Of a stretch of 63,560 nt of DNA, positions 21,557-57,500 are shown in pieces; positions within the stretch are counted from its first letter, which is position 1; each line of letters opens with the position of its first letter. Made by a program: the position numbers and the translations under genes. Location: IMG/VR virus record IMGVR_UViG_3300030382_003361, positions 1-63,560 of that record; one strand, 5' to 3'. Source of the stretch: a virus. Taxonomy: Duplodnaviria > Caudoviricetes. The notes under the pieces are model-generated. The model saw only the letters and a program-made list of their open reading frames with translations. It had not been told where the DNA came from and searched no databases.

Positions 21557-21575
21557 TTAATAAAAACAAATAGTT

Positions 21576-21785: not shown

Positions 21786-21786
21786 T

Positions 21787-21993: not shown

Positions 21994-22087
21994 GGTTTGG
22001 GTAAATACTTTAAATCTAAATGGAATGAGTTGCTGCGAGCCTTATTAATAGGGTCTGGCGGATGCAATAAGAAAAATTGTAAATGCA

Positions 22088-22276
22088 ATGAAAAGAACAA
22101 GAGTTGACGATATCCCTATTAAAAAATCCAGAGGATTAGGGGATACGATAGAGAAATTTACTCAAGCAACAGGAATAAAAAAAGCAGTCGAAACCGTGGC
22201 GAAAGCCACGGGAGGCGGCTGCGGATGTAATAAACGTAGGGATTCGTTAAATAGAACGTTCCCTTATAATAAATAA
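22088..22276 (+). CDS. Small basic protein with CGC motif
   Basis: GLGDTIEKFT..TGIK...CGC..RR..LN. Confidence 0.75.
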   Translation: MKRTRVDDIPIKKSRGLGDTIEKFTQATGIKKAVETVAKATGGGCGCNKRRDSLNRTFPYNK

Positions 22277-36136: not shown

Positions 36137-37312
36137 ATGGAAAATAAAATTACAGTAAAAGACTTAGGACAAGTCGAAGAAAAGTCCAAAGCGCAAGTAG
36201 AGGAAGAGTTGTTAAAAAAACATGAAGAAGAAGAAGTACAAGCGCAAACCAGTGAAGCTGGAGTGGAAAGAGTTAACTTGGAGCAGTCTAATAGAAGCCC
36301 TGAGAGTTCCTCTTCCTCACCGGAACAAGAAAGTGTACCGGAGGAAAGTAAAACACAAGAAAAAACTCCCTCCTCAGAGTTAAATGAGGAAAACGTTCTT
36401 TCGTATATTAAACAAAGATATGATAAAGATATATCGTCAGTAGAAGAATTATGGGCTCAACAAGAGTCTAATGAAGACCTCCCTGAAGATGTGTCGGCAT
36501 ATTTTAAATATAAAAAAGAAACGGGACGCGGTATTGAAGATTATGTGCGATTACAAAAAAATTACACAGAAATGGACGACGACGCGGTGTTAACTGATTA
36601 CTATACGGCTACCGAAGATGGGTTAGACGCTATAGATATTCAAGATGTCATGGAGGATAAATTTGGAGTGGATGAAGACTTAGATGATCCAAAAGATATT
36701 AAGAAGAGAAGGTTAGCGAAAAAAAGAGAACTTTCAAAGGCGAAGAAGTTTTTTGAAAAGCAAAAGGAACAATATAAAATTCCGCTTGAGTCAAGAGGGG
36801 ATGGGTTGTCCAAAGAACAAGAAGATGCTTTTAAGTCGTATAAAAGTTATGTTGAGGAGTCTAAAACTACCGAAGACGCGAGAAAAAAAAGGTATGATTG
36901 GTTTCTTACTAAAACCAATGAGGTTTTTAACGATGAGTTCAAAGGTTTTGAGTTCAATATCGGAGAAAAAAGTTTTACCTTTAAACCTGGTGACGCTAAG
37001 GAGTTAAAAAGTCGCCAGTCTGATGTCAATACATTTGTAAATAAATATATGGACCAAGAGACTGGAATGATGAAGGATGCACAAGGATATCACCGAGCAA
37101 TAGCTATGGCGATGAACCCTGAGAAATTTGCAAAATTCTTCTACGACCAAGGGGTGGCAACGACAGTAGATGATGTGGCGAGAAAATCGAAAAACATCAC
37201 TATGGATCGTCAAACTCCACAAACTTTTAGTAAAGACGGGTTGAAGATTAGATCAGTCGGAGATTCAAGTAGTGGAAGAGGACTCAAAATTAGAAGTATT
37301 AAAAAAAGTTAA
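36137..37312 (+). CDS. Putative capsid scaffolding protein (start revised to ATG 36137)
   Basis: Acidic, helical, between portal and MCP; the track start at 36107 lies upstream of the promoter box. Confidence 0.7.
   Translation: MENKITVKDLGQVEEKSKAQVEEELLKKHEEEEVQAQTSEAGVERVNLEQSNRSPESSSSSPEQESVPEESKTQEKTPSSELNEENVLSYIKQRYDKDISSVEELWAQQESNEDLPEDVSAYFKYKKETGRGIEDYVRLQKNYTEMDDDAVLTDYYTATEDGLDAIDIQDVMEDKFGVDEDLDDPKDIKKRRLAKKRELSKAKKFFEKQKEQYKIPLESRGDGLSKEQEDAFKSYKSYVEESKTTEDARKKRYDWFLTKTNEVFNDEFKGFEFNIGEKSFTFKPGDAKELKSRQSDVNTFVNKYMDQETGMMKDAQGYHRAIAMAMNPEKFAKFFYDQGVATTVDDVARKSKNITMDRQTPQTFSKDGLKIRSVGDSSSGRGLKIRSIKKS
36222..36383 (+). CDS. Nested +1-frame 53-aa basic protein with ArfA-like motif
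   Basis: MKKKKYKRKPVKLEWKELTWSSLIEALRVPLPHRNKKVYRRKVKHKKKLPPQS; A-rich leader. Confidence 0.6.
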   Translation: MKKKKYKRKPVKLEWKELTWSSLIEALRVPLPHRNKKVYRRKVKHKKKLPPQS

Positions 37313-37333
37313 TAATTAAAAAAATTAGAAATT

Positions 37334-38746
37334 ATGCCAGTAAATGCAACCCCCGGGTATGATTTGCAACCCAGTGCGGAGCGAGTAGCTTTAGCAACAA
37401 ACTATATAACTAACTTTGATTTCTTGAATCAGTATCTTCCAGATACTTATGAAAAGGAATTTGAGCGTTATGGCAATCGAACAGTCGCTTCATTCTTACG
37501 AATGGTAGGCGCAGAAATGCCTTCTAACTCAGACATGATTACGTGGGCTGAGCAAGGAAGGTTACACACTAAGTATACAAACTGTACATCAGCAGGAGCA
37601 GCAGCAGCCAATACTGCAACATGGACAGTGAATGATGTTTTAGTTCCAGGTACAGGTACTATAGCAATTAGAGTAGGACAAACTGTATTATTATCAGATA
37701 ACACAGCAGGTTCTAATTTATCTAATAAAGCTATTGTAACTGCAGTAACACCAGCAGCAGGCACTTTTACAGTTGCTTATTATGAAGCAGCAGGACAAGG
37801 CGTAGCTTTAGGTGTAGTAAGTAGTGTTATGATTTATGGTTCTGAATTTGCGAAAGGACAAGCAGGAATGACTGACTCCTTAGAATCAGACGATGTATTC
37901 TTTCAAAATTCTCCAATTATCATAAAAGATACTTATGAAGTAAGTGGTTCTGATATGGCTCAAATTGGTTGGGTAGAAATCTCAACTGAAGATGGCGGAT
38001 CAGGATATCTTTGGTATCTCAAATCAGAGCATGAAACAAGACTTCGTTTTGAAGATTATCTTGAAACTGCAATGATTGAAGCAGTTCCTGCAGAAGCAGC
38101 CTCAGGTGCAATAGCAGCTGTAGCTCCTGTTGGAAACAAAGGTTCTGAAGGTGTCTTTTATGTAGTAGGTAACAGAGGAAATGTTTATGGTGGTGGTAAC
38201 CCAACTACCTTAGCAGATTTTGATGCTGTTATTCAGAGACTTGACAAGCAAGGCTCTATTGAAGAAAATGTAATCTTTTGTGACAGACAATTCTCATTTG
38301 ATATTGACGATATGTTAGCTGCCCAAAACTCTTATGGAGCGGGTGGTACTTCGTATGGTCTTTTCGATAATGATGAGGATATGGCTCTCAACTTAGGTTT
38401 CACTGGATTCCGTAGAGGTTATGACTTTTACAAGTCTGACTGGAAATACCTTAACGATGCTACTATGAGAGGTGGTTTAGTAGGTGGGGCAATCAACGGA
38501 CTTTTAGTTCCTGCGGGCTCAACTACGGTTTATGACCAAATCTTAGGTAAAAACGCTAAGAGACCTTTCCTTCATGTAAGATATAGAGCTTCTGAAACTG
38601 AAGACAGACGTTATAAAACTTGGATCACTGGTTCTGCTGGTGGCGCAAGAACATCTTCTTTAGATGCAATGACAGTGAATTTCTTATCTGAAAGAGCATG
38701 TTGTACATTAGGTGCAAACAACTTCTTCTTATTCCAAGACGCATAA
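37334..38746 (+). CDS. Major capsid protein
   Basis: 470 aa after scaffold, followed by a strong terminator; QYLPD.YEKEFERYG, W.EQGRLH. Confidence 0.85.
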   Translation: MPVNATPGYDLQPSAERVALATNYITNFDFLNQYLPDTYEKEFERYGNRTVASFLRMVGAEMPSNSDMITWAEQGRLHTKYTNCTSAGAAAANTATWTVNDVLVPGTGTIAIRVGQTVLLSDNTAGSNLSNKAIVTAVTPAAGTFTVAYYEAAGQGVALGVVSSVMIYGSEFAKGQAGMTDSLESDDVFFQNSPIIIKDTYEVSGSDMAQIGWVEISTEDGGSGYLWYLKSEHETRLRFEDYLETAMIEAVPAEAASGAIAAVAPVGNKGSEGVFYVVGNRGNVYGGGNPTTLADFDAVIQRLDKQGSIEENVIFCDRQFSFDIDDMLAAQNSYGAGGTSYGLFDNDEDMALNLGFTGFRRGYDFYKSDWKYLNDATMRGGLVGGAINGLLVPAGSTTVYDQILGKNAKRPFLHVRYRASETEDRRYKTWITGSAGGARTSSLDAMTVNFLSERACCTLGANNFFLFQDA

Positions 38747-38759
38747 GAAGATTAATCAT

Positions 38760-38792
38760 AAGGGGAGGACTAACCTCCTCCCCTTTTTTTTT
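38760..38792 (+). terminator. Intrinsic terminator
   Basis: GGGGAGGA/TCCTCCCC plus T run. Confidence 0.85.
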
Positions 38793-38815
38793 AACTTAAA
38801 TTAAATTATACTAAA

Positions 38816-39607
38816 ATGGAAAATACACAAACAAAAAAAGTTGCGATTAAAAAAAAGAAAGCGTTAATCGCAAAAACTTACCGCTTAACAAGAAATGCAG
38901 CTCCTATCTGTTACATGCTTTCTTCCCACAATACTAAACGATCTCCTTTACAATATTTTGATGACCAAACGGGTGTAAACCGATCTCTTCGTTATGCAAG
39001 AAATCAAAAAAGCCCATTTGAAGATGAGCAAGATGGAAATGCTATTTTAGAGCCTATTATTTTTGAGGATGGGCTTCTGCATGTTCCTAAAACAAATCAG
39101 GTGCTACAAGAATTTTTATATTATCATCCGTCTAACGGAATGGTATTTGAAGAGGTTGACAAAAGCAAAGAAGCAGCAGAGGAATTAGAGATGGAAGATG
39201 TGGTTTTAGACGCTCAGGTAATTGCCAGAGATTTAACAGTAGACAAATTATCTACACTCTGCCGCGTGTTAATGGGAGCAGCAACCGATAAACTTACTAC
39301 GACTGAACTAAAAAGAGATATATTGGTTTTTGCTCGTACTAATCCTATAGATTTTTTAGATGCTTTAGATGACCCAATGTTAGAGGTTCAAGACAATGTA
39401 GTTCAGTTTTTTAGTAACAGTATATTGTCTCTTAGAAATAAACAAAGAGATGTTTATTTTAATCTTCCTAAAAACAAAAAGAAAATGTTGACTGTTCCTT
39501 TTGGGGAAGACCCTGCTGATATTGTGGCTTCTTATATGCAAACCGATGAAGGTATAGAAACTTATAAAGTGCTACTTAAGGCCTTAAAAAAAGATAAAAA
39601 AGATTAA
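38816..39607 (+). CDS. Conserved-type protein downstream of MCP
   Basis: LRYARNQKSPF.DEQ, FEDG.L.V. Confidence 0.75.
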   Translation: MENTQTKKVAIKKKKALIAKTYRLTRNAAPICYMLSSHNTKRSPLQYFDDQTGVNRSLRYARNQKSPFEDEQDGNAILEPIIFEDGLLHVPKTNQVLQEFLYYHPSNGMVFEEVDKSKEAAEELEMEDVVLDAQVIARDLTVDKLSTLCRVLMGAATDKLTTTELKRDILVFARTNPIDFLDALDDPMLEVQDNVVQFFSNSILSLRNKQRDVYFNLPKNKKKMLTVPFGEDPADIVASYMQTDEGIETYKVLLKALKKDKKD

Positions 39608-39654
39608 CTATCTTTGCGTAGTTATTTTTTATTAACCCATTAAAATTTTTTATT

Positions 39655-39930
39655 ATGGACAAATTTATAAGTGTGCCTGTAACGGGCGAAACAAATTTCT
39701 TGGTTAGCGTCTCTGATGTAATCGCTATTACAAGAACAAGTACCACTGAAAACAAAATTACATACAACAGTGGAAATACAGCAACTATTACATCAGGAAC
39801 GGAAGTAGCTGTAAATGATTTTAGAGATGCTTTACAAAACGCTATGGTATTAGCTCTGGAGACCTCATGGACTAACGTTGTATTCACGTTTGTTCCTCCA
39901 ACAGCCGTATCTGGAATAGTAATAGCCTAA
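39655..39930 (+). CDS. Small putative capsid accessory protein
   Basis: -7 box at 39609-39616; MDKFISVPV N-terminus. Confidence 0.65.
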   Translation: MDKFISVPVTGETNFLVSVSDVIAITRTSTTENKITYNSGNTATITSGTEVAVNDFRDALQNAMVLALETSWTNVVFTFVPPTAVSGIVIA

Positions 39931-39934
39931 GGTT

Positions 39935-40732
39935 ATGGGAAAGTATATTAGTGTTCCTGTAAAAATGTACGCTGGCTCAACTGCAACGAATACGGCAGCG
40001 GTAGACAGCGGCACAACCAGTGCGGCAACAAGCGATAAATTAACGGAAGCCGGACAAAACTTTGTGACTACAGTCACTGTAGGAGATTATGCGGTAATTA
40101 CTACCGGTATTGCTGGATTTCCAGTCCGATCTTATTCGGTTATTACAGCTGTCGACTCTGACACTGTATTAAGTTTAGGAGTAGGAAATGGAACAACAGC
40201 AGGAGTAGGAGGTTTAGCAGCAAGCGGAACAGCCTATTCTATTATCAAATCCGCAGATATTAATTATTGTGTACTTTCAGGAGGAACTTTCAATTCGAAT
40301 GTTAAACCTGGAGACATGGTTTGTAACGAAGCTACTAACCTTAACTATCGAGTTACTAATGTTTCTGTAGACGGAACAACTCTAACTTTAGATACTAAAG
40401 GAGCTGTAATCGTTGGTGATGATTTCTTTCTCTTATCCGAAAGAAGCGAGTCTGGTAACCAAAAAGTGATGTTAGATAAAGTTATGGAACTAAGAGGTAA
40501 TGCTTCTGATGGTGAGGTAACTTTTCACTATAAAAAAGGCGCTGCAGGTAATGACAAATTAGTTATTGCTATGGGAGATGCTGTTAGTGATGATGCTTAC
40601 TTTGGAGATTTCTATAAGGTCTGTCAAACAGCTTGGGAATCTCAATGGCAAAATGTTTGCGTACAAATGCCTATCGTTTCTTCCAGCGGAACACAAACGG
40701 TACAGTGGGCAGCAAGTTTTACTTGGTCGTAA
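39935..40732 (+). CDS. Putative capsid accessory protein with beta modules
   Basis: MGKYISVPV N-terminus similar to upstream gene. Confidence 0.65.
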   Translation: MGKYISVPVKMYAGSTATNTAAVDSGTTSAATSDKLTEAGQNFVTTVTVGDYAVITTGIAGFPVRSYSVITAVDSDTVLSLGVGNGTTAGVGGLAASGTAYSIIKSADINYCVLSGGTFNSNVKPGDMVCNEATNLNYRVTNVSVDGTTLTLDTKGAVIVGDDFFLLSERSESGNQKVMLDKVMELRGNASDGEVTFHYKKGAAGNDKLVIAMGDAVSDDAYFGDFYKVCQTAWESQWQNVCVQMPIVSSSGTQTVQWAASFTWS

Positions 40733-40755
40733 ACCTATACCTGTTATATTAATAA

Positions 40756-40786
40756 AGAAGAGGGTAATTTTACCCTCTTTTTTTTT
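40756..40786 (+). terminator. Intrinsic terminator abutting a -7 box (40790-40797)
   Basis: AAGAGGGTAA/TTACCCTCTT plus T run. Confidence 0.8.
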
Positions 40787-40801
40787 CCTTATCTTTGTAG
40801 T

Positions 40802-41110
40802 ATGAATAAATATCTAAGCGTTTTTCTCGTCGATTTTGGAACAAGAAGCATGTATAGTGTAGATGACATAATCGGGGTAACGATGCCTGCTAATAACGAA
40901 GTAGCCTTATGGTATCAGGGAGGCATGACACTAACCTTTACTCTAAGTGGTACTTTTGCCGGCGACAATAATGCGCCTGTAGATTACATATCAGACGTAA
41001 TCGCAACCGCGGTAGCGGGCGAGAATACATTAGAAGAAGAGTTAGTAGGAATAACGGATTTAAGTGGAAATGCTACTCAAATTCTTTCCGTAGCAATAGC
41101 AACCGCCTAA
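40802..41110 (+). CDS. Small acidic protein, possible third paralog
   Basis: MNKYLSV start; ATG 4 nt after TATCTTTG. Confidence 0.65.
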   Translation: MNKYLSVFLVDFGTRSMYSVDDIIGVTMPANNEVALWYQGGMTLTFTLSGTFAGDNNAPVDYISDVIATAVAGENTLEEELVGITDLSGNATQILSVAIATA

Positions 41111-41168
41111 GGTTGTAAAAAAAACCCTCCTTCTTTTTTTGTTATCTTTGTAAAAACATTTTCGAGTT

Positions 41169-42119
41169 ATGCCAGCATCAATAAATGAAGTGCGAAATAC
41201 AGTATTAGCAATAGCTAATAAGAATAACTATGGGTATATTTCTCCTCAAGATTTTAACCTGTACGCTCAACAAGCGCAGTTAGATATATTTGAAGATTAT
41301 TTCTATTCTTATAATAATTGGGTTAATAAACAAAACCAGCGTCTGTCCGGCACAGGATATGCGGATATTATTAAAGGGTTAGAAGAAGTTATTGATTCGT
41401 TTTCAGTACAATTGGTGTTAACGCAAAATAACGCTAATGTCTATGATTTACCTTTAGATTATTATTTAGTCAATAAATTATTTTACTATCCCGATATTTT
41501 ATTTACCGGGACAGCTACAGCCACTTCTGCTAATCAATTAGTAGATGCGGCAGCGGTAGGATGGACAACTATTCCTGCGGGATCTCCCACTCCTCGTATT
41601 GGAAGCATTGTCTTTAATACCACCACTTTAAATAATGCTTTTATAACGGGAGTAGTTAACACTACCACTGTTAATTTAAGCGCTAACATTATGACGATTG
41701 GAGATACTTATAATATTTATTCTCATACAAATATCAAGGAGGTAGAAAGAGTTAGTCAAAATAAAATATTTTATTTAACTAACTCTCAATTAACGGCGCC
41801 GACACAATCCTATCCGGCGTACGTGTTGGACGGTAATTCAGTTACTATCTATCCTTCTACTATTTTAAATGCCGGAGATATTCATATTCAATATGCTCGC
41901 TATCCTTTAGCTCCAGCATGGACGTGGAATACGTTAGTAGGGGGAGAACCGATATTTGATGCTACTCAACCTGGATTTCAAGAGTTTGAATTACCTGAGG
42001 CAGACGAGCCGGCATTAATTGCTAAAATCTGTCAATATGTAGGCATAGAAATTAGAGAGCCAGATGTGTATAAATTCGGACAACAAGACGAAGTTACTGA
42101 TAACCAAGAAACCAATTAA
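41169..42119 (+). CDS. Head-tail adaptor/ring protein
   Basis: NKNNYGYISPQDFNLYAQQAQ; -7 box at 41143-41150. Confidence 0.65.
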   Translation: MPASINEVRNTVLAIANKNNYGYISPQDFNLYAQQAQLDIFEDYFYSYNNWVNKQNQRLSGTGYADIIKGLEEVIDSFSVQLVLTQNNANVYDLPLDYYLVNKLFYYPDILFTGTATATSANQLVDAAAVGWTTIPAGSPTPRIGSIVFNTTTLNNAFITGVVNTTTVNLSANIMTIGDTYNIYSHTNIKEVERVSQNKIFYLTNSQLTAPTQSYPAYVLDGNSVTIYPSTILNAGDIHIQYARYPLAPAWTWNTLVGGEPIFDATQPGFQEFELPEADEPALIAKICQYVGIEIREPDVYKFGQQDEVTDNQETN

Positions 42120-42121
42120 TT

Positions 42122-43045: not shown

Positions 43046-43046
43046 T

Positions 43047-48158: not shown

Positions 48159-48176
48159 ATTTAAAATTATAGAATT

Positions 48177-50345
48177 ATGCCTTGTGGAACTTTAGGAACC
48201 TACTTTTTTGACGGAACAAGCTTTAGCGGAGCTACAGCCGTCTATACTACCAGCGCTTTAACTACTCCCGCACCTGATGGGTATTACTCTCAGGGAGGAT
48301 TATACCGTCAACAATTCGGGGGATTATTAGGTCCGGTTGTCCCGTGCCCTGCATGTACTATTGACTGTGGAGACCCTATTTTAGGACAAGGAAATCACGG
48401 AAAATATATACTTAATTTACAGTTAGGGTCTACTCCAGGGGCGGCAATTATTACTTTTAACGTAGGAGCTCCAGGCGTAGAATTAGCTGTGCCTGATGGA
48501 TGTACGTGGTTTTATGAAGACGCTGCAGGAACTCCAATCGCAGCTTCAGAATACTCTTCTTTAGTGGGAGGTTATCAAGAAGGTTTAATTGGATGTCAAT
48601 CAGGCTATCCCGCCAGCTGGTATTATTGTAACGGAGGAAATACTATTCAAACCAACATAGGATTCCCTTATGCAAATAGCGGAACAGAGTATACTTACAC
48701 TTCAGGCGCTTGGGCTGTAACGGGAGTCGCTACCATTGGGCCTTATGATGGTATAGTCGCTCCGGCTACACCCGGACAATCTACTTTGTTAGATTGGAAT
48801 TGTACTAATAATTGCGTAGCAGACGTAGCTAACTGTTGTGGTGCTGGAAATTGTGTAGGGTGTGGAATTGCTATTCCAGAATGTACTCCAGGAACTCCTA
48901 TAGCTCCTAATTTGCCTACCGGAACAAACTGGCCACAATGTGGAAATGAGTCGCGAAATGCGGTAATGGTCGTACCTTCTCCCCCTGGAGTCACCAATAC
49001 AGTACTAACAATAGAAGTGGAGGCTCCTTGTGCGGGCACGTGGTGGGCTATTGATGTTCAGTGCCCCGAAGAGCTTACTGCTATACCTTCATCTACGATC
49101 GTTACATCAGGGCCTGTTTGCGATGCCGTTATTACGACGGAGTATTATCATGTCCCTGTGGATGCTTGGGGCAATACTAATCCTAATTCAGGATATGATG
49201 CAGCGCAAGATTTTAATCCGGGAAATGGGGTTGTGGCAGCGGGACAAGCTAAAGGAACATTAGGATGGCATGATTGGATATTTGTAGATAAATATGGAGT
49301 AACTCCTCTTCCGGCTGGAAACTATAAAATGGAGTCTCCAGCAGGATCAGGTACTTATTGGGATGTAAAAGTAGGTATAAATTCTTATGATAGCTGTGAT
49401 CCCTCTTGTAACCCTCCTTTTGCACAATTTCCTCATGCAACCTACCCGCCTACAGGGCCGGTTCAAGACGGAATAGTAGACTCTATGTGCGAATGCCTTC
49501 CACCAGCACCATGCGCCACTCCAATTCCAGGAGCTGGCGGCACGGGAGAGTATTTCTTAAATATCGATTTAGGGGCAACACAAGGGGCTGCTATTGTTAA
49601 ATTTGATCCAATGGCTGTTCCGGACAGATGTGAATGGACGTATGACGGGACGACAGCATCTTATTATTCTCAAAATAATGTACTTAACCCGTCTACCGGT
49701 GATGGATATTTAGAAGGGCTTATTGGCACAATTGGATCGGGAGGGGGATGTACTCCTGCTCAAACTAACGCGGGAACTACTCCTTCTACCTCTTCTGCAG
49801 GAACTATATGGAATTGGAACGGAACTACTTTTATTAACACTCTTACGCCGACCACTATAGGTCCTTATGGAGCGATAATGACAGGGGTTAACGCAACTTC
49901 TTTAACAGCCGCAGCGCCAGCAGGAACAGGAGCTTTCGGACCTCCAATGAGGCAATGGCCTTGTATGGTTATTCCGAAACCTAATGCTTCTCCACAAATA
50001 GCCAATATAATAATAGATGGGCCTTGTGGAGGAACAGCATGGAATGTTCAGGTAATTTGCCCTGGGCCGCTTCCAAGTGTTCCTGTAAATATTGTAAGCA
50101 CGAGTTGCGCAGGGCCTTTCGATGGGGAGATGTTTTTTGCAGATGTAAACTCGGCAACACCTCATTCTTCGACACTAATTGGCTCTAATGATTGGGTGTT
50201 TGAAGATGAAAATGCTGAGACTCCTTATCCTGCAGGGACTTATACTATAGATAATGGAGGTGGAGTGATAGCGTGTGTTGTAATAGCAAATTATGCAGGA
50301 GGAAGCATAGTGCATCAGTATTCATTATGCGCGGGAAGTTGTTAA
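48177..50345 (+). CDS. Cys/Gly/Pro-rich virion protein with internal duplication
   Basis: Two copies of G.Y.LN..LG...GAAI..F...AVPD.C.W.Y...W...V.CP. Confidence 0.75.
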   Translation: MPCGTLGTYFFDGTSFSGATAVYTTSALTTPAPDGYYSQGGLYRQQFGGLLGPVVPCPACTIDCGDPILGQGNHGKYILNLQLGSTPGAAIITFNVGAPGVELAVPDGCTWFYEDAAGTPIAASEYSSLVGGYQEGLIGCQSGYPASWYYCNGGNTIQTNIGFPYANSGTEYTYTSGAWAVTGVATIGPYDGIVAPATPGQSTLLDWNCTNNCVADVANCCGAGNCVGCGIAIPECTPGTPIAPNLPTGTNWPQCGNESRNAVMVVPSPPGVTNTVLTIEVEAPCAGTWWAIDVQCPEELTAIPSSTIVTSGPVCDAVITTEYYHVPVDAWGNTNPNSGYDAAQDFNPGNGVVAAGQAKGTLGWHDWIFVDKYGVTPLPAGNYKMESPAGSGTYWDVKVGINSYDSCDPSCNPPFAQFPHATYPPTGPVQDGIVDSMCECLPPAPCATPIPGAGGTGEYFLNIDLGATQGAAIVKFDPMAVPDRCEWTYDGTTASYYSQNNVLNPSTGDGYLEGLIGTIGSGGGCTPAQTNAGTTPSTSSAGTIWNWNGTTFINTLTPTTIGPYGAIMTGVNATSLTAAAPAGTGAFGPPMRQWPCMVIPKPNASPQIANIIIDGPCGGTAWNVQVICPGPLPSVPVNIVSTSCAGPFDGEMFFADVNSATPHSSTLIGSNDWVFEDENAETPYPAGTYTIDNGGGVIACVVIANYAGGSIVHQYSLCAGSC

Positions 50346-50363
50346 GAAAAAAAATATAAAATT

Positions 50364-51164
50364 ATGCCTTATAGCGAATGTAAAACATTATCATATAGCG
50401 AAGAAGCCAAGGGTTGGCCTTCTTTTTATTCTTTTTGTGCGGACTGGATGCTCGGTATGAATAGTTATTTTTATACTTGGAGTGGAGGAAATTTATGGAG
50501 ACATAATACTAATCCTCTTCGAAACTCTTATTATGGAACGCTTTATCCATCCACTATTACAGGAGTATTTAACGTAGAACCTCAAACTATTAAGCTTTTT
50601 AAAACCATGAGTTTTGAAAGTGATGATAATTGGGCGTGCACCAATTTAACTACTGACTTAGCCAATGGCTCTATGCTTAACACTTGGTTTGTAGAAAAAG
50701 AAGGGGAGTGGTTTACTTTCTTAAGAGAAAACGCGGGCACATTAGATTGGAGAGATAGATCGGCTAATGGAATTGGAGCGGCTAATACCGTGAGTGGGCC
50801 AGTTAACGCTACAGTAATAGATTTTACGGTAGACGTAGGCACTCTTATAAAAGGGCGAACTCCACCAGATATAGGAGATGCGGTATATTTTGGAAATATC
50901 CCTACTTTTGCTGGTTTTGCAACAGCGGTAGTTCCTTTTCAAACAACGGATCCTTTAGGAGTAGTAACTTTAGCTTCTATTACTGTAGACTGTACCACAG
51001 GGGTAGTTCCTGCTCCAACGGACTTTATTTTATTTATTAAAGATGCTGTAGCAGAATCCCACGGAGCCCGCGGATATTTTATGGAATTTACCTTGGAAAA
51101 TAATAATACCAACCCTGTTGAACTGTTTGCGGTAGGGAGTAGTGTAATGAAAAGTTATCCATAG
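50364..51164 (+). CDS. C-terminal part of the stabilization protein as a separate gene
   Basis: TLSYSE..KGWPSFYSF, EKEGEWF, GARGYF, VELFAV. Confidence 0.65.
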   Translation: MPYSECKTLSYSEEAKGWPSFYSFCADWMLGMNSYFYTWSGGNLWRHNTNPLRNSYYGTLYPSTITGVFNVEPQTIKLFKTMSFESDDNWACTNLTTDLANGSMLNTWFVEKEGEWFTFLRENAGTLDWRDRSANGIGAANTVSGPVNATVIDFTVDVGTLIKGRTPPDIGDAVYFGNIPTFAGFATAVVPFQTTDPLGVVTLASITVDCTTGVVPAPTDFILFIKDAVAESHGARGYFMEFTLENNNTNPVELFAVGSSVMKSYP

Positions 51165-51184
51165 ATTTTACTATCTTTGCATAA

Positions 51185-51595
51185 ATGAAATTAAATGTAC
51201 TTCCTTTAACCGAAACTGATTACGAAGAGATTCTATGTCAGTGGTGGAAAGACTGGAGATGGACACCTCCTTCAAGAGATTTTTTGCCGGATAATGGTAC
51301 AGGAGGATTTATGGTGTATGATGATACAACGCCAATTTGTGCAGGGTTTATGTATTTAACAAACTCGAAGGCGGTATGGTGTGATTGGATTATATCGAAT
51401 TTTAGATATAAAGACAAGCAAAAACGAAGAGACGCTTTATTATTATTAGTACGTACTATAAGTAATTTAGCAGAAGATTTGGATAAAAAATTTATTTACG
51501 CATTGATAAAAAATAAACCTTTGGTTGACGTGTACAAAAAAGTGGGTTTTGTAGAAGCAAGCACTTACACTCATGAAATGATAAAAACGATTTAA
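51185..51595 (+). CDS. GNAT-like acetyltransferase-fold protein
   Basis: PICAGFMY, YKKVGF; position before ejection genes; -7 box at 51172-51179. Confidence 0.6.
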   Translation: MKLNVLPLTETDYEEILCQWWKDWRWTPPSRDFLPDNGTGGFMVYDDTTPICAGFMYLTNSKAVWCDWIISNFRYKDKQKRRDALLLLVRTISNLAEDLDKKFIYALIKNKPLVDVYKKVGFVEASTYTHEMIKTI

Positions 51596-51597
51596 TT

Positions 51598-52368
51598 ATG
51601 GCAGTAGTAACCGCAGCGGTAGTAGGTATAGGGACAGGAATATATTCCGCCTATAGTTCTTTCGATAATGCCGCTAAACAAAAACAAGCAGCAGAAGACG
51701 CAGATAGAGAGGCAAAAAAATTAATGAACGACGCTAAGAAAAAAGCTGAAAAAGATCATTATGAAGGTTTAGCCGTTCCATTAGATGCTTATGATGCCGA
51801 ATTTGAAAACATTTTAGCTGGTCAACAACAATCAGTAGAAGCCTTGCAAGAAGGTGATGCGAGAGCGTTAGCATCTGGAGTAGGTAGAGTGGGGGCCGCA
51901 CAACAAGAAGCTACCGAAGAGCAGCGGATAGCTATGGGACAAGATATATATAATTTAGATGTCCAGAAAGCAGAGTCAAAAGACGCTATCAATCAGCAGT
52001 TAATTGAAATGGATGCGGCTGGTGCAAGAGAGCAAAACCTCCGAGCGAGAGAATCCGAACAAGCAAGACAGCAATCTATTCAACAAGGGGTTCAGGCTGT
52101 AGGGCAAACCTTACAATCTGCAGCGAGCCTTGTCCCATTATATAGTCAAAATCGAGCTACCAGAAGAGGAGCAAAAATGGGAGAACAGTTTTCCGACCAG
52201 GGCGTAGGTGAAGGTAAATTTAGAACTAAAGAAGAGTTCCAGTCTGCTTTAGGAGAAAAATATGCGAGTGGAGATATTACTAAACAAATGTATAGAGGAT
52301 TTAAGAAAAACCCATCTTCGTTTAGTTATGAGGCAATTTTTGGCAAAGATTTTGATCCCTATAAATAA
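51598..52368 (+). CDS. Internal virion/ejection protein
   Basis: Hydrophobic Ala/Gly N-terminus, Gln/Ala coiled coils. Confidence 0.65.
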   Translation: MAVVTAAVVGIGTGIYSAYSSFDNAAKQKQAAEDADREAKKLMNDAKKKAEKDHYEGLAVPLDAYDAEFENILAGQQQSVEALQEGDARALASGVGRVGAAQQEATEEQRIAMGQDIYNLDVQKAESKDAINQQLIEMDAAGAREQNLRARESEQARQQSIQQGVQAVGQTLQSAASLVPLYSQNRATRRGAKMGEQFSDQGVGEGKFRTKEEFQSALGEKYASGDITKQMYRGFKKNPSSFSYEAIFGKDFDPYK

Positions 52369-52374
52369 ATATAT

Positions 52375-54570
52375 ATGGCAAAAGGAATTGTAAATTACAC
52401 CCCCCGAGGACCTGCATCAACTAAAAAAGATATTGACTTTGATGTTTACGCAGAAAGAGATGTTACTAAAAGTCAAGTAAATTGGGCGGATGTAGCTAAA
52501 AATATTACAGGAGAACTCGAAACTATTCGAGACGATAGGCAGGGTAGGAAAGCTGAAATCCAAAAAGCTACCGATGAGTCGATGACCCAGTTGGATGATA
52601 TGGGCAAGTATGATAATCAAACACTCATGGATTTGGTTGTAGATGGTTCAAATTTTGCCGCTAATAGTATGAACACCCAGAAAAAACTTATGGAAAAAGG
52701 GTTGATAAAACCCCATGACTATACTAAATTTACTCAAAATGTAAGCTCTGGATTTAAAACGTTCAAGGCTACAGCCGAGGGTTGGGATAAGGATTTTGCA
52801 GAATATACTAAAAGAACAGAAGATGGAACAAATAGTAGTTTAGAAGTGTATTTAGCTAAACAAGTAGAATCCTTTGGTAACATTAATGATATGCAATTAT
52901 ACACCAATCCACAAACAGGAAATATGGCGTTAGCCTCTACTTATGTGGATGATAATGGAATAACGCGTATAAATGAAGACCCTAATAGTCATATTAGTAT
53001 GCAAAGGCTGAATGCACTAAGTAAACAAAGAATAGATAAAGTAAATGTAGGGGAAGTGTCTAAAGTGTATAGCGCTGAATTAGGAACATGGATAACAGCA
53101 GCTTACGATGCGAGTGATAAATCCGTGACCTCGATTGAAGATATAAGAAGGGGTAAAGATTTTCAGGATCTATTAGAAGTAAAGGCTAACCAAGCTATAG
53201 CAAACCCTACCCATGCTGGTAGTATCTTAGCGGATAATAATTTAATGACATCAGATGGAGAAAAATATAGAGGGGGATCTCAGGAGGAGTTTGACCAATG
53301 GGCAAAAGACCATCCTGGAACAGAGAAGATTCAAGTACCGCCTTTGGCTGATGAAACCGAAGGAAATGCTTTTAGGCAATGGGTTAATGATACTTACCCT
53401 GAGAAAGCTACAGAATTTGACTTAGATGCCACAGGAGCTCATGATAATGAATTTATCAAAAAGGCTTATGAGTCATTAGGAGAAGAATACGCCCGAGATG
53501 TATTAGGTATTGAACCTACCGTAGGGGGAGTAGAGAATCCTATTATTGTTATGGAGTATGACCAAAAAACCCAAAGAAAAATTCCAAAGTTAACTGAGAA
53601 CCAAGAAAAAGTAGCCAAAGATTTTGTGAAGTCGGCTATTGAAGGACACTTGCCGCATATAGAAAAAGTACAGCAAGGGAAATTCCCTCCTGCTAAAAGA
53701 GCGCCAACTGCGATTAGTTATGGACAAGAAAAAGAAGAAAAGGTACATACCAGCTTAGTAACCGAATATGACCTTATATTAAGTTCAGATAATCCAGATG
53801 AAATAAACAGATATTTAGATCGTAGAATTAGCGAAAAAAATAAAGCTATCAATACTTATAATGCAGACAATGAAGATGACCAACAGGCTACTATTGAAAA
53901 TAGAGAGGTAACGACAAATGATGCAGGTAATCAGGTAATCCGATTCACTCTCTCCGATGGCACAACAGTAGATGTGGATAGAAGCTTAAGTTATACCGAC
54001 CAAATGGTTCAATTAGACGAAGCATTAAACCCAGAAGGAACTCTTAATTTATCCGAAATTGAAGACGCTGCAAAAAAGATGGAGATTGACATGAATAAGG
54101 AGGGTAGTAAGTATGAAACCGATGGAAAAGTGAAGGTATCAAAATCTCAATTCAAGCAGCCTGATTATAGCCAGCCAAAAATGGTAGGAGGAAAAGTTCA
54201 AACTGCTGACGCATATATACAGAGCGAACTGGGAGCAACCCTTGAGGTAGGAAGTGATAGTGATAATCAAATAAAACAAGTCTTCTCTGAAGCAACAACT
54301 GGATATCTGCCTTCTGACTTTAAAAAATTAATGGCTGAAAACGGAACATCTCTTAAAGTTAAATATGAAGGACGTGGGGCACGAACAGATGTAATGACCA
54401 TGAGTTTAAATGGTATAACGATAACACTTAAGCCACGAAAGACTAATAAATCCGCCACACTATGGCAGACTATCATGGATGATTTAATAAAACCTGCTAT
54501 TGAGAAATCCAACAAAGAACGAGGGGGAGGAACAACGAAAAAGAACGAAGGACGCGGAAATTCAAGATAA
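52375..54570 (+). CDS. Internal virion/ejection protein
   Basis: Large helical protein in podovirus core-gene position. Confidence 0.6.
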   Translation: MAKGIVNYTPRGPASTKKDIDFDVYAERDVTKSQVNWADVAKNITGELETIRDDRQGRKAEIQKATDESMTQLDDMGKYDNQTLMDLVVDGSNFAANSMNTQKKLMEKGLIKPHDYTKFTQNVSSGFKTFKATAEGWDKDFAEYTKRTEDGTNSSLEVYLAKQVESFGNINDMQLYTNPQTGNMALASTYVDDNGITRINEDPNSHISMQRLNALSKQRIDKVNVGEVSKVYSAELGTWITAAYDASDKSVTSIEDIRRGKDFQDLLEVKANQAIANPTHAGSILADNNLMTSDGEKYRGGSQEEFDQWAKDHPGTEKIQVPPLADETEGNAFRQWVNDTYPEKATEFDLDATGAHDNEFIKKAYESLGEEYARDVLGIEPTVGGVENPIIVMEYDQKTQRKIPKLTENQEKVAKDFVKSAIEGHLPHIEKVQQGKFPPAKRAPTAISYGQEKEEKVHTSLVTEYDLILSSDNPDEINRYLDRRISEKNKAINTYNADNEDDQQATIENREVTTNDAGNQVIRFTLSDGTTVDVDRSLSYTDQMVQLDEALNPEGTLNLSEIEDAAKKMEIDMNKEGSKYETDGKVKVSKSQFKQPDYSQPKMVGGKVQTADAYIQSELGATLEVGSDSDNQIKQVFSEATTGYLPSDFKKLMAENGTSLKVKYEGRGARTDVMTMSLNGITITLKPRKTNKSATLWQTIMDDLIKPAIEKSNKERGGGTTKKNEGRGNSR

Positions 54571-57500
54571 TGTTTGAAGATAAAACCATAGAAGAAGTAG
54601 AGCAGTTATTAGCCGACTATATAGCCACTGTAGATAATCCTGAATATGGAGGCGATATGGAGGTGATAAACTCTAAATTTCCAGAATTTCAAAATGTAGA
54701 CCCTCAGTTGTTAGAAGATTATATTGCTACTTATAATAATCCTGAATATGGGGGAAATATAGAGATTATTAATTCTAAATTTCCAGAATTTTTTGAAGGG
54801 TTAAAAAAAAAAGACGCTGGCGTGGTTACTTCGGAAACGGAAGGTATGGAATCCGTTACACCTCAAGAAGGGGAAGAAGTTATCTCATCGGATGCTTCGC
54901 AAGTAACTACAACTGAATCTCCTGAAGGAGAAGTAACCGAAGATGTTACTCTCGAATCACAAACCGTTATTCCTGAAGATGAAGATGAGGAGGAGATTGA
55001 AGGAATGGAAACCTATGTCAGTCCTTATGCGACAGGTGAGGGAGAAAAAAATACCTGGATAGAAGACTTCGCAGGTAAAAATGAGTTAACAGATTTTTTT
55101 GGAGATATATATAGAAGCTGGGATGCAGGCCAAGCTCAAGGAGGTAGTATAGATGAAAGTTTAGAGTTATGGGCAAAAGGAGATAACGCTACAGACGAAG
55201 ATATTGAAGCTTTTTTAGCAGCGCAAGAGCGTATGCAGTCCAAAGGAGAGTCCGATGAAATGCGTGACTTTAATAAAATATATCAAGCAGAAGATGGAGG
55301 TTGGTGGGGATTTATTAAAGGGGTAGCCGCTAACCCTACCGTTATTCCTCAACTTTTTACATCTTCAGTAAGCGCTATGGTTAATCCAGCTGTCTTAGCA
55401 GCAGGGGCAGGAGGAGCAGCAGTAGGAGCAGGGATTGGATCAACAGGGTTTAGCGCAGGACCCTTAGGAGTATTTACTACTGCAGGAGGAGCTATTGCGG
55501 GAGGAATGGGCGCTATGGGTGCAACTTTAGAAACAGGATTAACATTTTCTGAACTACTTTTAGAAGAGTTAGGAGATAAACCTATGACTAAAGAGAATGT
55601 AAGAAAAGTTTTACAAGACCCGGAGGCTATGGCCAGTATCAGAAGAAAAGCTTTAGGAAGAGGATTAACTATTGGGGCGGTAGATGCAATCTCAGCAGGA
55701 GTTGCGAGTAAAGTCACTGCGGGAACTATTAAGGCGGTTAGAAAAGGGAAGAAAGTAAAAAAATTAGCAACGATGGCAGGAACGGCTGCTGGAGGAACAG
55801 TAGAGGCGGTAGGGGGATCTACAGGAGAAGTGGCTGGTAGGTTAGTTGCAGGACAAGAAATGGATGTGGCTGAAATTGGTTTTGAAGGAATAGCTGGAAC
55901 AGCAACCGCACCACTTACCATAGGGTATGGTATATATAAAGCTAACCGTGGACCTGTATCAAAAGCGCAAATAGAAGATATACTGGACAATGGATCAGAC
56001 GAAGATATTGCTGGGGTAAACTTAGAAATAATCAATGACCCTGAATTAAAACAAAGAGCTGCAGATGCTAAGGAAAATATAAAAACAGAAACACGATTAC
56101 GAGGGGAATTTGAGGAGGCGGGAATTACCGATGAAAATGATATAAATGAATTACTGGATTTAGAAAAACAAAAAGAAAAATTAGAAGGAGCTACCTCTGA
56201 GACAGCAAAAAATCGAGTAAAACAGATTGTTGATCAAATAGAGGCAGTTATACAAAAAGGAGCTTTCAGAAAGAAAGCAGTGGAAGAGACTACGGAGCAA
56301 ACTACTGAAGAAACGATTGAAACCCAGAGAGAAGAAGAATTAGAAGAGCATATAGATAAATTTTTTACTGAAGATAAAGAGACTGGTAATAGAGTAGGGC
56401 CAAATCCTGATACTCAACCTGAATTATACAATGAAGAAATTAAGAAGAGGGATGATATTAATAAGAAATATGATGAATTATTAACCGAAAAAAAGAAACA
56501 AGATGCCATTCAAAAGCAAAGCACAGAAACGCTGGATGTTCAAGAACAAACCCCAGATGGCCAAAGAGTGGGCGAACGAGACGCCCCAGTGGCTGAGGTT
56601 ACCCGAGAGAGTGAAACGGAAATTGAAACCGATACTCAACCGCCAACGCAAGAGGAAGTAGCTGTTCAAGAGGAAGCTAAAGATTTACAAACATTATTAG
56701 AAGAACAAGAAACAGTTCCTACTCCAGAAGCTGAAGTCACAACCCAAGAAACAGCAGTAGAAGTAGACACCGAGGCAGGAACAGTAGGCGTAACACGAAG
56801 CGATGGAACAAAAGTGGTATTAAAAGGATCAAGTGTCGCTCCTAATGTACAGATTACTGAACAAACTACTGAACAGACAAAAACAGGAAAGATTGGAAAT
56901 ATTTTAGTAGCCAAAGCGAAGAATGCAGGGAAGGCAATAGCTAAATTATTACCTGGCGCAAATATTGTTATTCATGCCACAGAAAAAGCCTATAACCAAG
57001 CGGTTGCTGAGAACGCAAAAGGATCAAGGGGTGCTTATTCAGGAAACACTAATACTATCCATATTAACGCTAATAAGGCTAATGCTAAAACCCTAACACA
57101 TGAAGTTTTTCACGCTATCCTTAAAAATAAACTAAAGTCAGAGGTAAATATACAGGCGGTAACTAAACGAATGGTGAATGCTGTTTCAAAAAGCCTAAAG
57201 AATAGACCTAAATTAAAAGCAATGTTGGATAAATACGCTTCTAATTTTGCAGAAAATCTTCAGAGCGAAGAAAAATTAGCGGAATTAGTAGGAGCTTTAG
57301 CTGACGATTTTACTAAATTAGATGCTCCTACCAGAAGTCTCGTAAAGCGATGGTTAGATAAAATAGCACAAACTTTTGGCATTACTACTGAAACTCAATC
57401 TGTTCAAGATACTATTGACCTTTTAAATACTATTGCGGAAAAAGTATCTACAGGACAAGAGGTTACAAAAAAAGATGTGAAGAGTGTTAAAAAAAGAAAA

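What the first reader, a model, noticed from the sequence alone, without database searches (positions are those of the whole stretch)
36222..56661. Possible general dual-coding strategy: acidic linkers of structural genes carry basic microproteins
Two independent nested ORFs share frame (+1), size (52-53 aa), A-rich leader and location under acidic disordered linkers, and a third candidate follows an A10 run at 54803. Inference: the same DNA yields an acidic linker and a basic peptide, coupling their expression and possibly their interaction. This would extend the set of overt small basic genes at 21290-22276. Standard gene callers would miss this layer.
Basis: inference. Interest (0 to 1): 0.8.

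Follow-up and report, generated by a model that had tools for sequence, protein, structure and literature searches.

The report
Hidden genes inside phage structural genes
Two small, very basic proteins and one frameshift product are encoded in second reading frames inside the structural genes of a marine phage; gene finders miss this coding layer, which is conserved in many related phages.

Summary
The window is a complete 63.5-kb podophage record of the marine Flavobacteriia-phage type. Both nested +1 ORFs exist as described: 36222-36383 (53 aa) and 56503-56661 (52 aa).

Their number in the window is no higher than synonymous-codon shuffles give. Comparison with relatives nevertheless shows that both are real overlapping genes.
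- The nested frame evolves like a coding frame (dN/dS 0.14-0.23). The host frame there evolves like a non-coding frame (1.3-1.6).
- The host frame is still kept free of stops in 42 of 42 nested copies, against 1 of 30 free-standing copies, and it is kept acidic.
- Both peptides belong to families that also occur as free-standing small phage genes. ORF2 has 3050 representative relatives. ORF1 has 172 relatives and is DUF7230-like.

The third candidate is real but different. An A10 run at 54803-54812 is conserved as A9-A11 in 45 of 59 related genes. It opens the -1 frame, not the +1 frame. That frame has no start codon and encodes a conserved aromatic, Arg/Gly-rich tail. This is a programmed slippage site.

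Deposited phage records do not annotate these features (2 of 2 checked for the nested gene). Expression and function are untested.

The parts
36137..37312 (+). Host gene 1: 391-aa structural, scaffold-like protein between the portal gene (33646-36081) and the major capsid gene (37334-38746). It has a conserved N-terminal 28 aa, then a variable acidic linker.
   Evidence: It matches phrog_16786 (unknown function). The portal and capsid PHROG matches of its neighbours give the position. At least 595 related loci exist in IMG/VR. Host-frame dN/dS is 0.21 upstream and 0.15 downstream of the nested part. 'Scaffold-like' is inferred from gene position only.
36222..36383 (+). Nested gene 1 (53 aa, +1 frame, stop included): a very basic, DUF7230-like small protein with a conserved core around the motifs EW..AL and RNKKKY.
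   Evidence: Nested frame dN/dS is 0.16 against 1.63 for the host frame (10 sequences, nucleotide alignment), and 0.23 against 1.30 with 64 sequences. Diversity is highest at host codon position 1 (0.356, against 0.178 at position 3). 172 small proteins are related, best E 6e-14. 75 of the best 80 IMG/VR loci carry it nested in +1.
54570..61610 (+). Host gene 2: giant 2346-aa virion protein gene.
   Evidence: It matches phrog_32588 and no Pfam family. The homologue in Flavobacterium phage elemoF is annotated 'structural protein'.
54803..54812 (+). A10 slippery run, 233 nt after the giant gene's ATG.
   Evidence: 45 of 59 distinct related genes carry A9-A11 there (34 A10, 8 A11, 3 A9), at a median of 182 nt from the ATG. 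45 of 46 KKK tripeptides in the first 100 codons are all-AAA, against 0 of 35 elsewhere in the same genes. It is the only run of 10 or more A on the + strand of the window.
54813..54916 (+). -1-frame tail read after slippage: about 34 codons, Arg/Gly/aromatic-rich, ending at TGA 54914-54916. There is no start codon, and the -1 frame is closed just upstream of the run.
   Evidence: Alternative-frame identity is 49-64% against 33-40% in the host frame, in 3 relatives. 38 distinct tails share the motifs YG[IF]R and W[FI][FI]G. The frame stays open for 17-45 codons in 46 of 46.
56503..56661 (+). Nested gene 2 (52 aa, +1 frame, stop included): begins MPFKS, then a helical hairpin and a basic tail.
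   Evidence: 43 of 69 related loci carry it nested. Nested frame dN/dS is 0.15 against 1.65 for the host frame, and 0.14 against 1.34 with 41 sequences. The family has 3050 representatives at E<=1e-3. It matches phrog_1375 at E 3.7e-4. AF2 gives pLDDT 82 with helices 6-15 and 17-26.

Best explanation
The late structural operon of this phage carries a second coding layer at three sites.

(1) and (2) Two complete small-protein genes lie in the +1 frame inside acidic, disordered linkers: ORF1 in the scaffold-like gene and ORF2 in the giant virion-protein gene. I infer that each is translated by independent initiation at its own ATG, behind an A-rich leader without a Shine-Dalgarno sequence. That leader type is recalled as usual for Bacteroidota and was not checked here. 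Each would give a basic protein of about 52 aa while ribosomes in frame 0 read the same DNA as linker. [quoted passage not shown] On the host frame it acts only to keep it free of stops and acidic. This works through the third positions of the nested codons: T is avoided, because T before AA, AG or GA makes a host stop. G at those positions would turn host Lys codons into Glu codons; that second step follows from the genetic code and was not counted.

(3) At the A10 run, 78 codons into the giant gene, slippage shifts a share of the product into the -1 frame. The slippage is most likely by the RNA polymerase, adding one A, or else a -1 ribosomal shift on A AAA AAA. The result would be a short protein: the N-terminal domain plus a conserved tail of about 34 aa.

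Shown here: conservation, frame-specific selection, family membership and codon adaptation. Inferred: translation, the mode of initiation or slippage, and every function. For function I favour nucleic-acid-binding or virion-internal roles, linked to the host proteins by co-expression.
For: Frame-specific selection. On nucleotide alignments, the ORF1 region gives nested dN/dS 0.16 and host 1.63, while the rest of the gene gives host 0.15 and +1 frame 1.28. Between the window and L147 the 21 differences are 15 synonymous and 6 non-synonymous in the nested frame, but 1 synonymous and 20 non-synonymous in the host frame. Diversity peaks at host codon position 1 inside the ORF and at position 3 in the flanks. 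The first 29 codons of ORF2 in 27 sequences give 0.15 against 1.65. Larger sets give 0.23 against 1.30 (64 sequences) and 0.14 against 1.34 (41 sequences).

Both frames are used. The host frame has no stop in 42 of 42 nested ORF2 copies, against 1 of 30 free-standing copies (mean 4.6 stops). T at nested third positions is 3% against 21%. The net charge of the host-frame translation is -9.4 against +1.4. Resampling the codons of the same peptides with ordinary phage codon usage keeps the host frame open in less than 0.4% of trials.

They are real protein families. The ORF2 profile finds 3050 representatives (328 at E<=1e-10), mostly proteins of 45-100 aa that start at residue 1. The ORF1 profile finds 172 small proteins, and 8 of 10 nested copies touch DUF7230.

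Genome-wide scan. Of 49 same-strand, stop-free alternative-frame matches to four relatives, the 12 in which the alternative frame beats the host frame all fall in these three regions.

Slippage site. A9-A11 is present in 45 of 59 genes. All-AAA coding of KKK holds for 45 of 46 cases at the site and 0 of 35 elsewhere, although AAA makes up 74% of Lys codons. The tail motif is conserved.

Leaders are gene-like.

A cultured phage carries two of the features. Flavobacterium phage elemoF gp18 has the nested MPFKS gene and an A10 run.
Against: There is no direct evidence of transcription, translation or slippage, and no RNA run is listed as holding the sequence.

The number of such ORFs in the window is what codon shuffles give.

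ORF1 is absent from 72 of the 81 closest homologues of its host gene, which have 0 to 6 +1-frame stops in the aligned linker segment. It was not found in three deposited phage records. It is therefore dispensable or often lost.

For the -1 tail the pN/pS contrast is weak: 0.68 in the alternative frame against 0.91 in the host frame, on an uncertain alignment. The +1 frame is also open there, for a median of 35 codons.

Nei-Gojobori estimates are biased in overlapping frames, and the sequences are related rather than independent. The alignments were built on the alternative-frame peptides and so lean towards that frame. Searches used nucleotide alignments and agree.

Own-codon permutation keeps the host frame open in 67% of trials for ORF2 and 19.5% for ORF1. 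The adaptation therefore lies in codon choice, not in codon order.
Confidence: 0.82

Rival explanations
1. Compositional artefact. Purine-rich codons of acidic linkers leave the +1 frame free of stops and make it read as Lys/Arg, so the ORFs are chance by-products.
For: The counts of +1 ORFs equal the synonymous-shuffle expectation: 5 against 5.9, and 3 against 1.4 for basic ones with 0.125 of shuffles reaching the observed value. The other +1 ORFs of the window (36471, 36801, 49054, 53255) behave this way.
Against: Nested frame dN/dS is 0.14-0.23 while the host frame gives 1.3-1.6. Free-standing homologues number in the hundreds to thousands. In most homologues the same linker has 2-6 +1-frame stops.
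Confidence: 0.03
2. The host frames are not read through. The 'giant' and 'scaffold-like' ORFs would each be two genes with a small gene between them, and frame 0 would be open across the small gene by accident.
For: Free-standing copies of the ORF2 family sit directly after the end of an ORF of more than 996 codons (L276, L284, L321) or between ORFs of 640 and 848 codons (L280). A split arrangement therefore exists in nature.
Against: The host frame is open in 42 of 42 nested copies against 1 of 30 free copies, with T3 depleted to 3% and the host translation kept acidic. Fewer than 0.4% of codon-resampled versions stay open. The 28-aa N-terminus of the scaffold-like protein is under frame-0 purifying selection (0.21) and has no stop before the linker.
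Confidence: 0.04
3. The nested peptides are made as frameshift fusions to the host N-terminus rather than from their own ATG. An example would be loss of one A in the A7 run just upstream of the ORF1 ATG.
For: In the window an A7 run (TTA AAA AAA C) directly precedes the ORF1 ATG. The same genome uses an A10 run for recoding.
Against: The A7 run is not conserved in clade members. The Met of ORF2 is invariant in 28 of 28 copies. Free-standing relatives start at the same residue. The leaders look like those of genes.
Confidence: 0.07
4. The A10 run is a DNA-level contingency tract. Replication slippage would switch the giant gene on and off; there would be no programmed transcriptional or ribosomal slippage.
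For: Long homopolymers are hypermutable in DNA (established knowledge, recalled).
Against: The length is held at 10 in 34 of 59 lineages, with the giant gene in frame in all of them. The DNA contigs of four runs show no indel at the run, although contigs drop rare variants. The -1 tail carries a conserved motif and a defined stop.
Confidence: 0.08
5. The conserved feature is a nucleic-acid element, such as an RNA structure or a protein-binding site, and not a peptide.
For: Contigs of other phages pile up only on 56489-56547, so that stretch is conserved at the nucleotide level.
Against: Variation has three-base periodicity in the nested frame. Synonymous divergence in the nested frame is high (pS 0.6-0.7) while the peptide is kept. 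Protein-level homologues have divergent DNA.
Confidence: 0.03

Closest known systems
Lambda Rz/Rz1 embedded spanin genes (PMC6139136 and PMC5295617: search listing and start of abstract only; the +1 embedding itself is recalled)
   Same: A complete small gene lies in the +1 frame inside a larger phage gene. I recall that the same pair of families also occurs in separated architectures. Here the small genes occur both nested and free-standing.
   Different: The nested proteins here have no lipobox or signal sequence and are extremely basic. The hosts are a scaffold-like gene and a giant virion gene, not a lysis gene. Two unrelated families are embedded in one genome.
Overlapping genes of phiX174-type phages and overprinting in viruses (PMC8227390: search listing and start of abstract; phiX174 details recalled)
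   Same: Both involve dual coding in two frames. The frames show asymmetric constraint.
   Different: Here the nested genes belong to old, widespread families that are often free-standing. The likely history is therefore capture or read-through of an existing gene by a neighbour's linker, not de novo birth inside an old gene. That history is inferred.
Programmed transcriptional slippage: Thermus thermophilus dnaX, Shigella spa13, IS elements (PMC5009743, passages read)
   Same: A conserved homopolymer inside an ORF is followed by nearby alternative-frame stops. The outcome is a shorter product that shares the N-terminus with the full-length protein.
   Different: This site lies in the giant virion-protein gene of a phage. 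The alternative tail is itself conserved, with an aromatic, Arg/Gly-rich motif. Whether the polymerase or the ribosome slips is unknown.
Lambda gpG/gpGT -1 ribosomal frameshift (PMC5009743, legend of Figure 4 read)
   Same: Two structural-module products share an N-terminus, probably in a fixed ratio.
   Different: Here the frameshift product is the shorter one. The site is a 10-base run near the 5' end, not a heptamer near the 3' end.
Pfam DUF7230 (PF23876) and PHROG phrog_1375, both of unknown function
   Same: The ORF1 family touches DUF7230 (8 of 10 copies, best E 2.6e-4). ORF2 matches phrog_1375 (E 3.7e-4; 7 of 28 copies).
   Different: All scores are below or without curated cut-offs. 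Neither library records a nested arrangement.

Membership tests
Embedded (nested) overlapping protein-coding gene | The ORF lies wholly inside another gene in a different frame of the same strand. | tested here: met
   Both ORFs lie in frame +1 of their hosts. The ORF1 family is nested in 75 of 80 related loci and the ORF2 family in 42 of 80.
Embedded (nested) overlapping protein-coding gene | The nested frame is under purifying selection that host-frame conservation cannot explain. | tested here: met
   Nested frame dN/dS is 0.14-0.23 and host frame 1.3-1.6. The free-standing control gives the same off-frame value, 1.65.
Embedded (nested) overlapping protein-coding gene | The host frame is kept open and functional across the overlap. 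| tested here: met
   42 of 42 nested copies have no host-frame stop, against 1 of 30 free copies. T3 is 3% against 21%, and host-frame charge is -9.4 against +1.4. Fewer than 0.4% of resampled versions stay open.
Embedded (nested) overlapping protein-coding gene | Both products are detected. | not testable with these tools
   No RNA holder was listed, and no proteomic data were at hand.
Pfam PF23876 (DUF7230) | The score reaches the gathering cut-off of 27 bits. | tested here: not met
   The window peptide scores 15.8 bits, E 0.015. 8 of 10 clade copies match at E<=1, best 2.6e-4. One database relative carries the family. It is a relative, not a formal member.
PHROG phrog_1375 | A significant profile match (no curated cut-off exists). 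| tested here: inconclusive
   E 3.7e-4, 21.8 bits, over residues 3-42. Only 7 of 28 nested copies match at E<=0.01.
Pfam PF11450 (DUF3008) | A profile match. | tested here: not met
   No Pfam family matched ORF2 at E<=10. The protein atlas lists a DUF3008 cluster at only 0.85, which is a lead and no more.
Programmed slippage (recoding) site | A slippery homopolymer is conserved at a fixed place while similar runs are avoided elsewhere. | tested here: met
   A9-A11 is present in 45 of 59 genes. All-AAA coding of KKK holds for 45 of 46 cases at the site and 0 of 35 elsewhere.
Programmed slippage (recoding) site | A conserved alternative-frame ORF lies downstream and can be reached only by the shift. 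| tested here: met
   There is no start codon. The -1 frame has a stop at or just before the run in the window, G001 and G004; in L089 and G003 it is open for 21-22 codons before the run. The motif is conserved in 38 distinct tails. Alternative-frame identity exceeds host-frame identity in 3 of 3 matches. The pN/pS contrast is weak, 0.68 against 0.91.
Programmed slippage (recoding) site | Length heterogeneity is seen in RNA, or the trans-frame protein is detected. | not testable with these tools
   Only DNA contigs were available.

The most novel reading that the evidence does not exclude
A rule of the genetic code is being exploited. Because Lys/Arg codons read one base earlier give Glu/Gln/Lys codons, acidic disordered linkers of phage structural proteins would serve as parking places for whole, pre-existing genes of basic small proteins. 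The acidic linker and the basic protein made from the same DNA would be partners in fixed proportion. For example, the linker could escort or neutralise the basic protein during assembly, and the basic protein could then bind the packaged DNA or leave with it. Together with slippage at homopolymers, this would form a widespread, unannotated coding layer in marine phages.
Probability: 0.15. Interest if true: 0.85.

Novelty: new variant of a known kind. Interest (0 to 1): 0.74.

Why it matters
Fully embedded genes supported by this kind of evidence are, as far as I recall, few in tailed phages (not surveyed here). This genome holds two such genes from unrelated families, plus a recoding site, and all three are conserved in many uncultured marine phages. 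Among the stretches scanned, which were capped at 600 per search, at least 147 encode a relative of ORF1 and at least 379 a relative of ORF2.

At least one cultured phage, Flavobacterium phage elemoF, carries the ORF2 gene and the A10 run, so both can be tested at the bench. Neither of the two deposited records checked for the nested ORF2 gene annotates it, so phage proteomes of this group are incomplete.

The free-standing and nested copies of one family form a natural experiment on how codon choice lets two frames coexist. They also point to a route to overlap by read-through or fusion across an existing gene rather than by de novo birth. The sharp contrast in all-AAA coding of KKK (45 of 46 at the site, 0 of 35 elsewhere) is a simple signature that could be used to find recoding sites in metagenomes.

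Tried and rejected
- Window-only statistics cannot tell real nested ORFs from chance ones. I set them aside in favour of comparative tests.
- Single-peptide searches found nothing. The word-indexed protein search with ORF2 had no candidate. tblastn of either peptide against 50,697 phage records gave no match at E<=1e-3. Profiles were needed.
- The ORF1 profile found nothing in MW202828, Maribacter phage Panino or elemoF (0 of 3).
- Pfam gave no family for the five large structural proteins or for ORF2.
- A Foldseek search of the PDB with the ORF2 model found nothing at E<=0.001. The ORF1 model (pLDDT 75.6) was not searched.
- Homology between the window's structural proteins and the neighbours of free-standing copies was not detectable: tblastn gave only one shadow hit. 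Shared synteny is therefore not shown, and the capture history stays an inference.
- The search for related loci with the N-terminus of the giant protein gave only 2 loci. I scanned the loci already held instead.
- Expression: no RNA holder was listed. Laying DNA contigs gave only presence, a pile-up of foreign contigs on 56489-56547, and no indel at the A10 run.
- Antisense alternative frames gave 228 stop-free matches. I did not analyse them, because antisense shadow conservation is hard to interpret. Antisense dual coding is therefore not excluded.
- Literature searches and a term search of PMC7077304 (it does not mention the elemo phages) found no description of these nested genes or of this slippage site. 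The library is incomplete, supplements are closed, and the paper that first described the elemo phages was not found.


Full report
What the window is. The window is a whole virus record of 63,560 bases with about 35% G+C. It has a late structural block on the + strand. The portal gene is at 33646-36081, a 391-aa gene of unknown function at 36137-37312, and the major capsid gene at 37334-38746. Large virion genes follow, up to a 2346-aa ORF at 54570-61610. The nearest deposited relatives are an uncultured podovirus (MW202828), Maribacter phage Panino, the Flavobacterium 'elemo' phages and Cellulophaga phages, at 60-80% nucleotide identity over parts of the query.

Check of the observation. Both nested ORFs are there, in frame +1 of their hosts. 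They have 53 and 52 codons and net charges of +17 and +15, and they lie under host stretches of charge -10 and -11. The A10 run is at 54803-54812. The A fraction of the 20 nt before the two ATGs is 0.50 and 0.70. It averages 0.48 for 29 gene starts and 0.33 for 569 internal out-of-frame ATGs, of which only 1.6% reach 0.60. Within the window alone the ORFs are not more frequent than chance. In 1000 synonymous-codon shuffles of 47 genes, +1 ATG ORFs of 50 aa or more were 5 observed against 5.9 +/- 2.1 expected. Strongly basic ones were 3 against 1.4, and 0.125 of shuffles reached the observed value.

ORF1 in relatives. I examined 81 loci: 80 IMG/VR loci that encode a homologue of the 391-aa protein and MW202828. 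Nine keep a +1 ORF of 45-49 codons from the same ATG to the same stop. The other 72 have 0 to 6 +1-frame stops in the aligned linker segment. The ATG comes from a conserved host His-Glu pair, and the stop from a conserved host Glu-Leu-Asn.

On a nucleotide alignment, diversity inside the nested ORF is highest at host codon position 1 (0.356), against 0.165 and 0.178 at positions 2 and 3. In both flanks it is highest at position 3 (0.31-0.34). Nei-Gojobori estimates pooled over 45 pairs of 10 sequences give dN/dS 0.16 in the nested frame and 1.63 in the host frame. The rest of the gene gives 0.15 in the host frame and 1.28 in +1. The closest relative (L147) differs at 21 sites. These are 15 synonymous and 6 non-synonymous in the nested frame, against 1 and 20 in the host frame.

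Of the best 80, 75 lie in frame +1 of an ORF of about 380-430 codons. Four are free-standing (L217, L221, L222, L229), and one sits in a truncated frame. With 64 distinct nested copies the contrast is 0.23 against 1.30. The same profile finds 172 called small proteins of 37-83 aa, with best E 6e-14. Eight of 10 nested copies touch Pfam DUF7230 below its cut-off.

ORF2 in relatives. Of 69 loci related to the giant gene, 43 carry a peptide starting M-x-FKS-x-AQ in frame +1 of the giant ORF. This holds although the host proteins share only 27-50% identity. The first 29 codons in 27 sequences give dN/dS 0.15 in the nested frame and 1.65 in the host frame. With 41 nested copies the values are 0.14 and 1.34.

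An exhaustive profile search finds 3050 representative proteins at E<=1e-3, of which 328 reach E<=1e-10. Most have 45-100 aa and start at residue 1. Some carry the module at the N-terminus of longer proteins, joined to a weak P-loop ATPase/kinase-like region (AAA-type Pfam matches below their cut-offs), an IF3 C-terminal domain, or a SAM-lyase/DUF3293-like domain. Of the best 80 IMG/VR loci, 42 are nested in +1, 30 are free-standing small genes, and 8 are N-terminal modules.

Both frames are in use. The free-standing copies serve as a control. The frame one base upstream has no stop in 42 of 42 nested copies but in only 1 of 30 free copies, where the mean is 4.6 stops. T at nested third positions is 3% against 21%. 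The translation of that frame has net charge -9.4 against +1.4. Ordinary genes of the window have 32-40% T at third positions. When the same peptides are re-encoded with ordinary codon usage, the host frame stays open in less than 0.4% of trials. Permuting each ORF's own codons keeps it open in 67% of trials for ORF2 and 19.5% for ORF1. The adaptation therefore lies in which codons are used. This rules out the reading that frame 0 is open by accident, and it shows selection on the linker for openness and acidity.

Genome-wide scan. I took 856 alternative-frame stop-free stretches of 25 aa or more from 47 genes and compared them with four relatives. Two of these relatives are complete genomes. 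The scan gave 49 same-strand matches without stops. Alternative-frame identity exceeded host-frame identity in 12 of them, and all 12 fall in three regions: ORF1, ORF2 (including one shadow hit in the third frame), and 54797-54913 in frame +2. The other 37 had higher host-frame identity. The 228 stop-free antisense matches were not evaluated.

The third site. The stretch after the A10 run is conserved in the -1 frame (49-64% identity, against 33-40% in the host frame). It has no ATG, GTG or TTG. In three of the six distinct sequences examined the -1 frame is closed at or just before the run: TGA directly precedes it in G001 and G004, and lies two codons upstream in the window. In L089 and G003 that frame stays open for 21-22 codons upstream of the run.

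Among 59 distinct 5' regions of related giant genes, 45 have A9-A11 there (34 A10, 8 A11, 3 A9), at a median of 182 nt from the ATG. The -1 frame then runs for 17-45 codons. It encodes a tail with the motifs YG[IF]R and W[FI][FI]G. In the same 59 genes AAA makes up 74% of Lys codons. Yet none of 35 KKK tripeptides beyond codon 100 is all-AAA, while 45 of 46 within the first 100 codons are. Slippery runs are thus avoided everywhere except at this one place. The pN/pS contrast for the tail is weak, 0.68 against 0.91, on a gappy alignment. The +1 frame is open there too, so the tail rests mainly on motif conservation and on the run. Conserved runs of this kind drive programmed transcriptional slippage in Thermus dnaX, Shigella spa13 and IS elements (PMC5009743, passages read). 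A -1 ribosomal shift on A AAA AAA is the alternative.

Deposited and cultured phages. The ORF2 profile matches inside the giant gene of Flavobacterium phage vB_FspP_elemoF_6-3D (gp18, 48718-59802) and inside that of MW202828 (741-12320). In both records only the giant CDS is annotated there. In elemoF the nested ORF has 42 codons, in +1 of gp18. ElemoF also has an A10 run 169 nt into gp18, and MW202828 has an A11 run at 187 nt. The word-indexed protein database holds no close relative of the window's ORF2 peptide, which fits gene callers skipping nested copies.

Structure and function. AlphaFold2 with the nested-copy alignments gives ORF2 a confident helical hairpin (residues 6-26, pLDDT 87-95) followed by a basic tail, with mean pLDDT 82. 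ORF1 gets two short helices, with mean pLDDT 75.6. No solved structure resembles the ORF2 model. The protein atlas places ORF2 next to clusters of 52-59-aa viral hypothetical proteins (scores 0.95-0.96), and ORF1 next to unnamed clusters and one cluster partly carrying DUF7230. Function is unknown.

Given the charge, the late structural context and the fusion partners, I favour nucleic-acid binding or a virion-internal role tied to the host proteins. This is inference. Free-standing ORF2-family genes lie right after, or between, very long ORFs in four of the six loci inspected. That suggests the nested state arose when a long gene read through or fused across an existing small gene. Homology of those long ORFs to the window's proteins could not be shown.

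Comparison with what is known. Embedded +1 genes are known in phages, for example Rz1 in Rz (listings; details recalled). Overprinting is well described in viruses (listings), and programmed slippage is known. Three things are new here. The genes are two unrelated, widespread families of small basic proteins. The hosts are acidic linkers of a scaffold-like gene and a giant virion gene. And two embedded genes occur together with a recoding site in one structural operon. My literature searches found no description of this, but the library is incomplete and supplements were closed.

Verdict. The dual-coding interpretation is supported for both ORFs by comparative evidence. It is changed for the third site, which is -1 slippage and not a +1 ORF. 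Expression coupling and interaction remain unproven. No experiment has yet shown the products.

Noticed in passing
window 54600-54800: The N-terminus of the giant protein holds a tandem duplication of a unit of about 34 aa (two copies ending in the motif SKFPEF), just upstream of the A10 run. In the window the run lies 233 nt from the ATG, against a median of 182 nt in relatives.
   Followed up: partly
No similarity to the two nested families was tested.
   Followed up: no
window 55349-56035 (- strand): A 228-codon antisense ORF (190 codons from its ATG), rich in Ala and Pro, lies opposite the Gly/Ala-rich part of the giant gene. It looks like a compositional shadow. Contigs from other organisms pile up at 55357-55443 (depths 171 and 670 in two runs), which fits a low-complexity repeat.
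   Followed up: partly
window 6278 (A9 on + strand, inside the - strand ORF 6053-6475) and 11142 (T9): These are further homopolymer runs of 9 in the early region on the other strand. I did not check whether they are conserved or are recoding sites.
   Followed up: no
P0005, P0002, P0113 (database proteins): The MPFKS module is fused in frame to an IF3 C-terminal domain (Pfam E 1.5e-40), to a region with only weak, sub-threshold AAA-type P-loop matches, and to a SAM-lyase/DUF3293-like domain. The giant protein of elemoF is itself annotated with DUF3293. This may hint at function.
   Followed up: partly
window 36213-36219: An A7 run (TTA AAA AAA C) directly precedes the ORF1 ATG, with a +1-frame TAA overlapping it. 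It is not conserved in relatives.
   Followed up: yes
window 54813-54912, frame +1: All three forward frames are open for about 30 codons after the A10 run. In 46 related genes the +1 frame is open for 26-56 codons. The +1 peptides show no common motif.
   Followed up: partly
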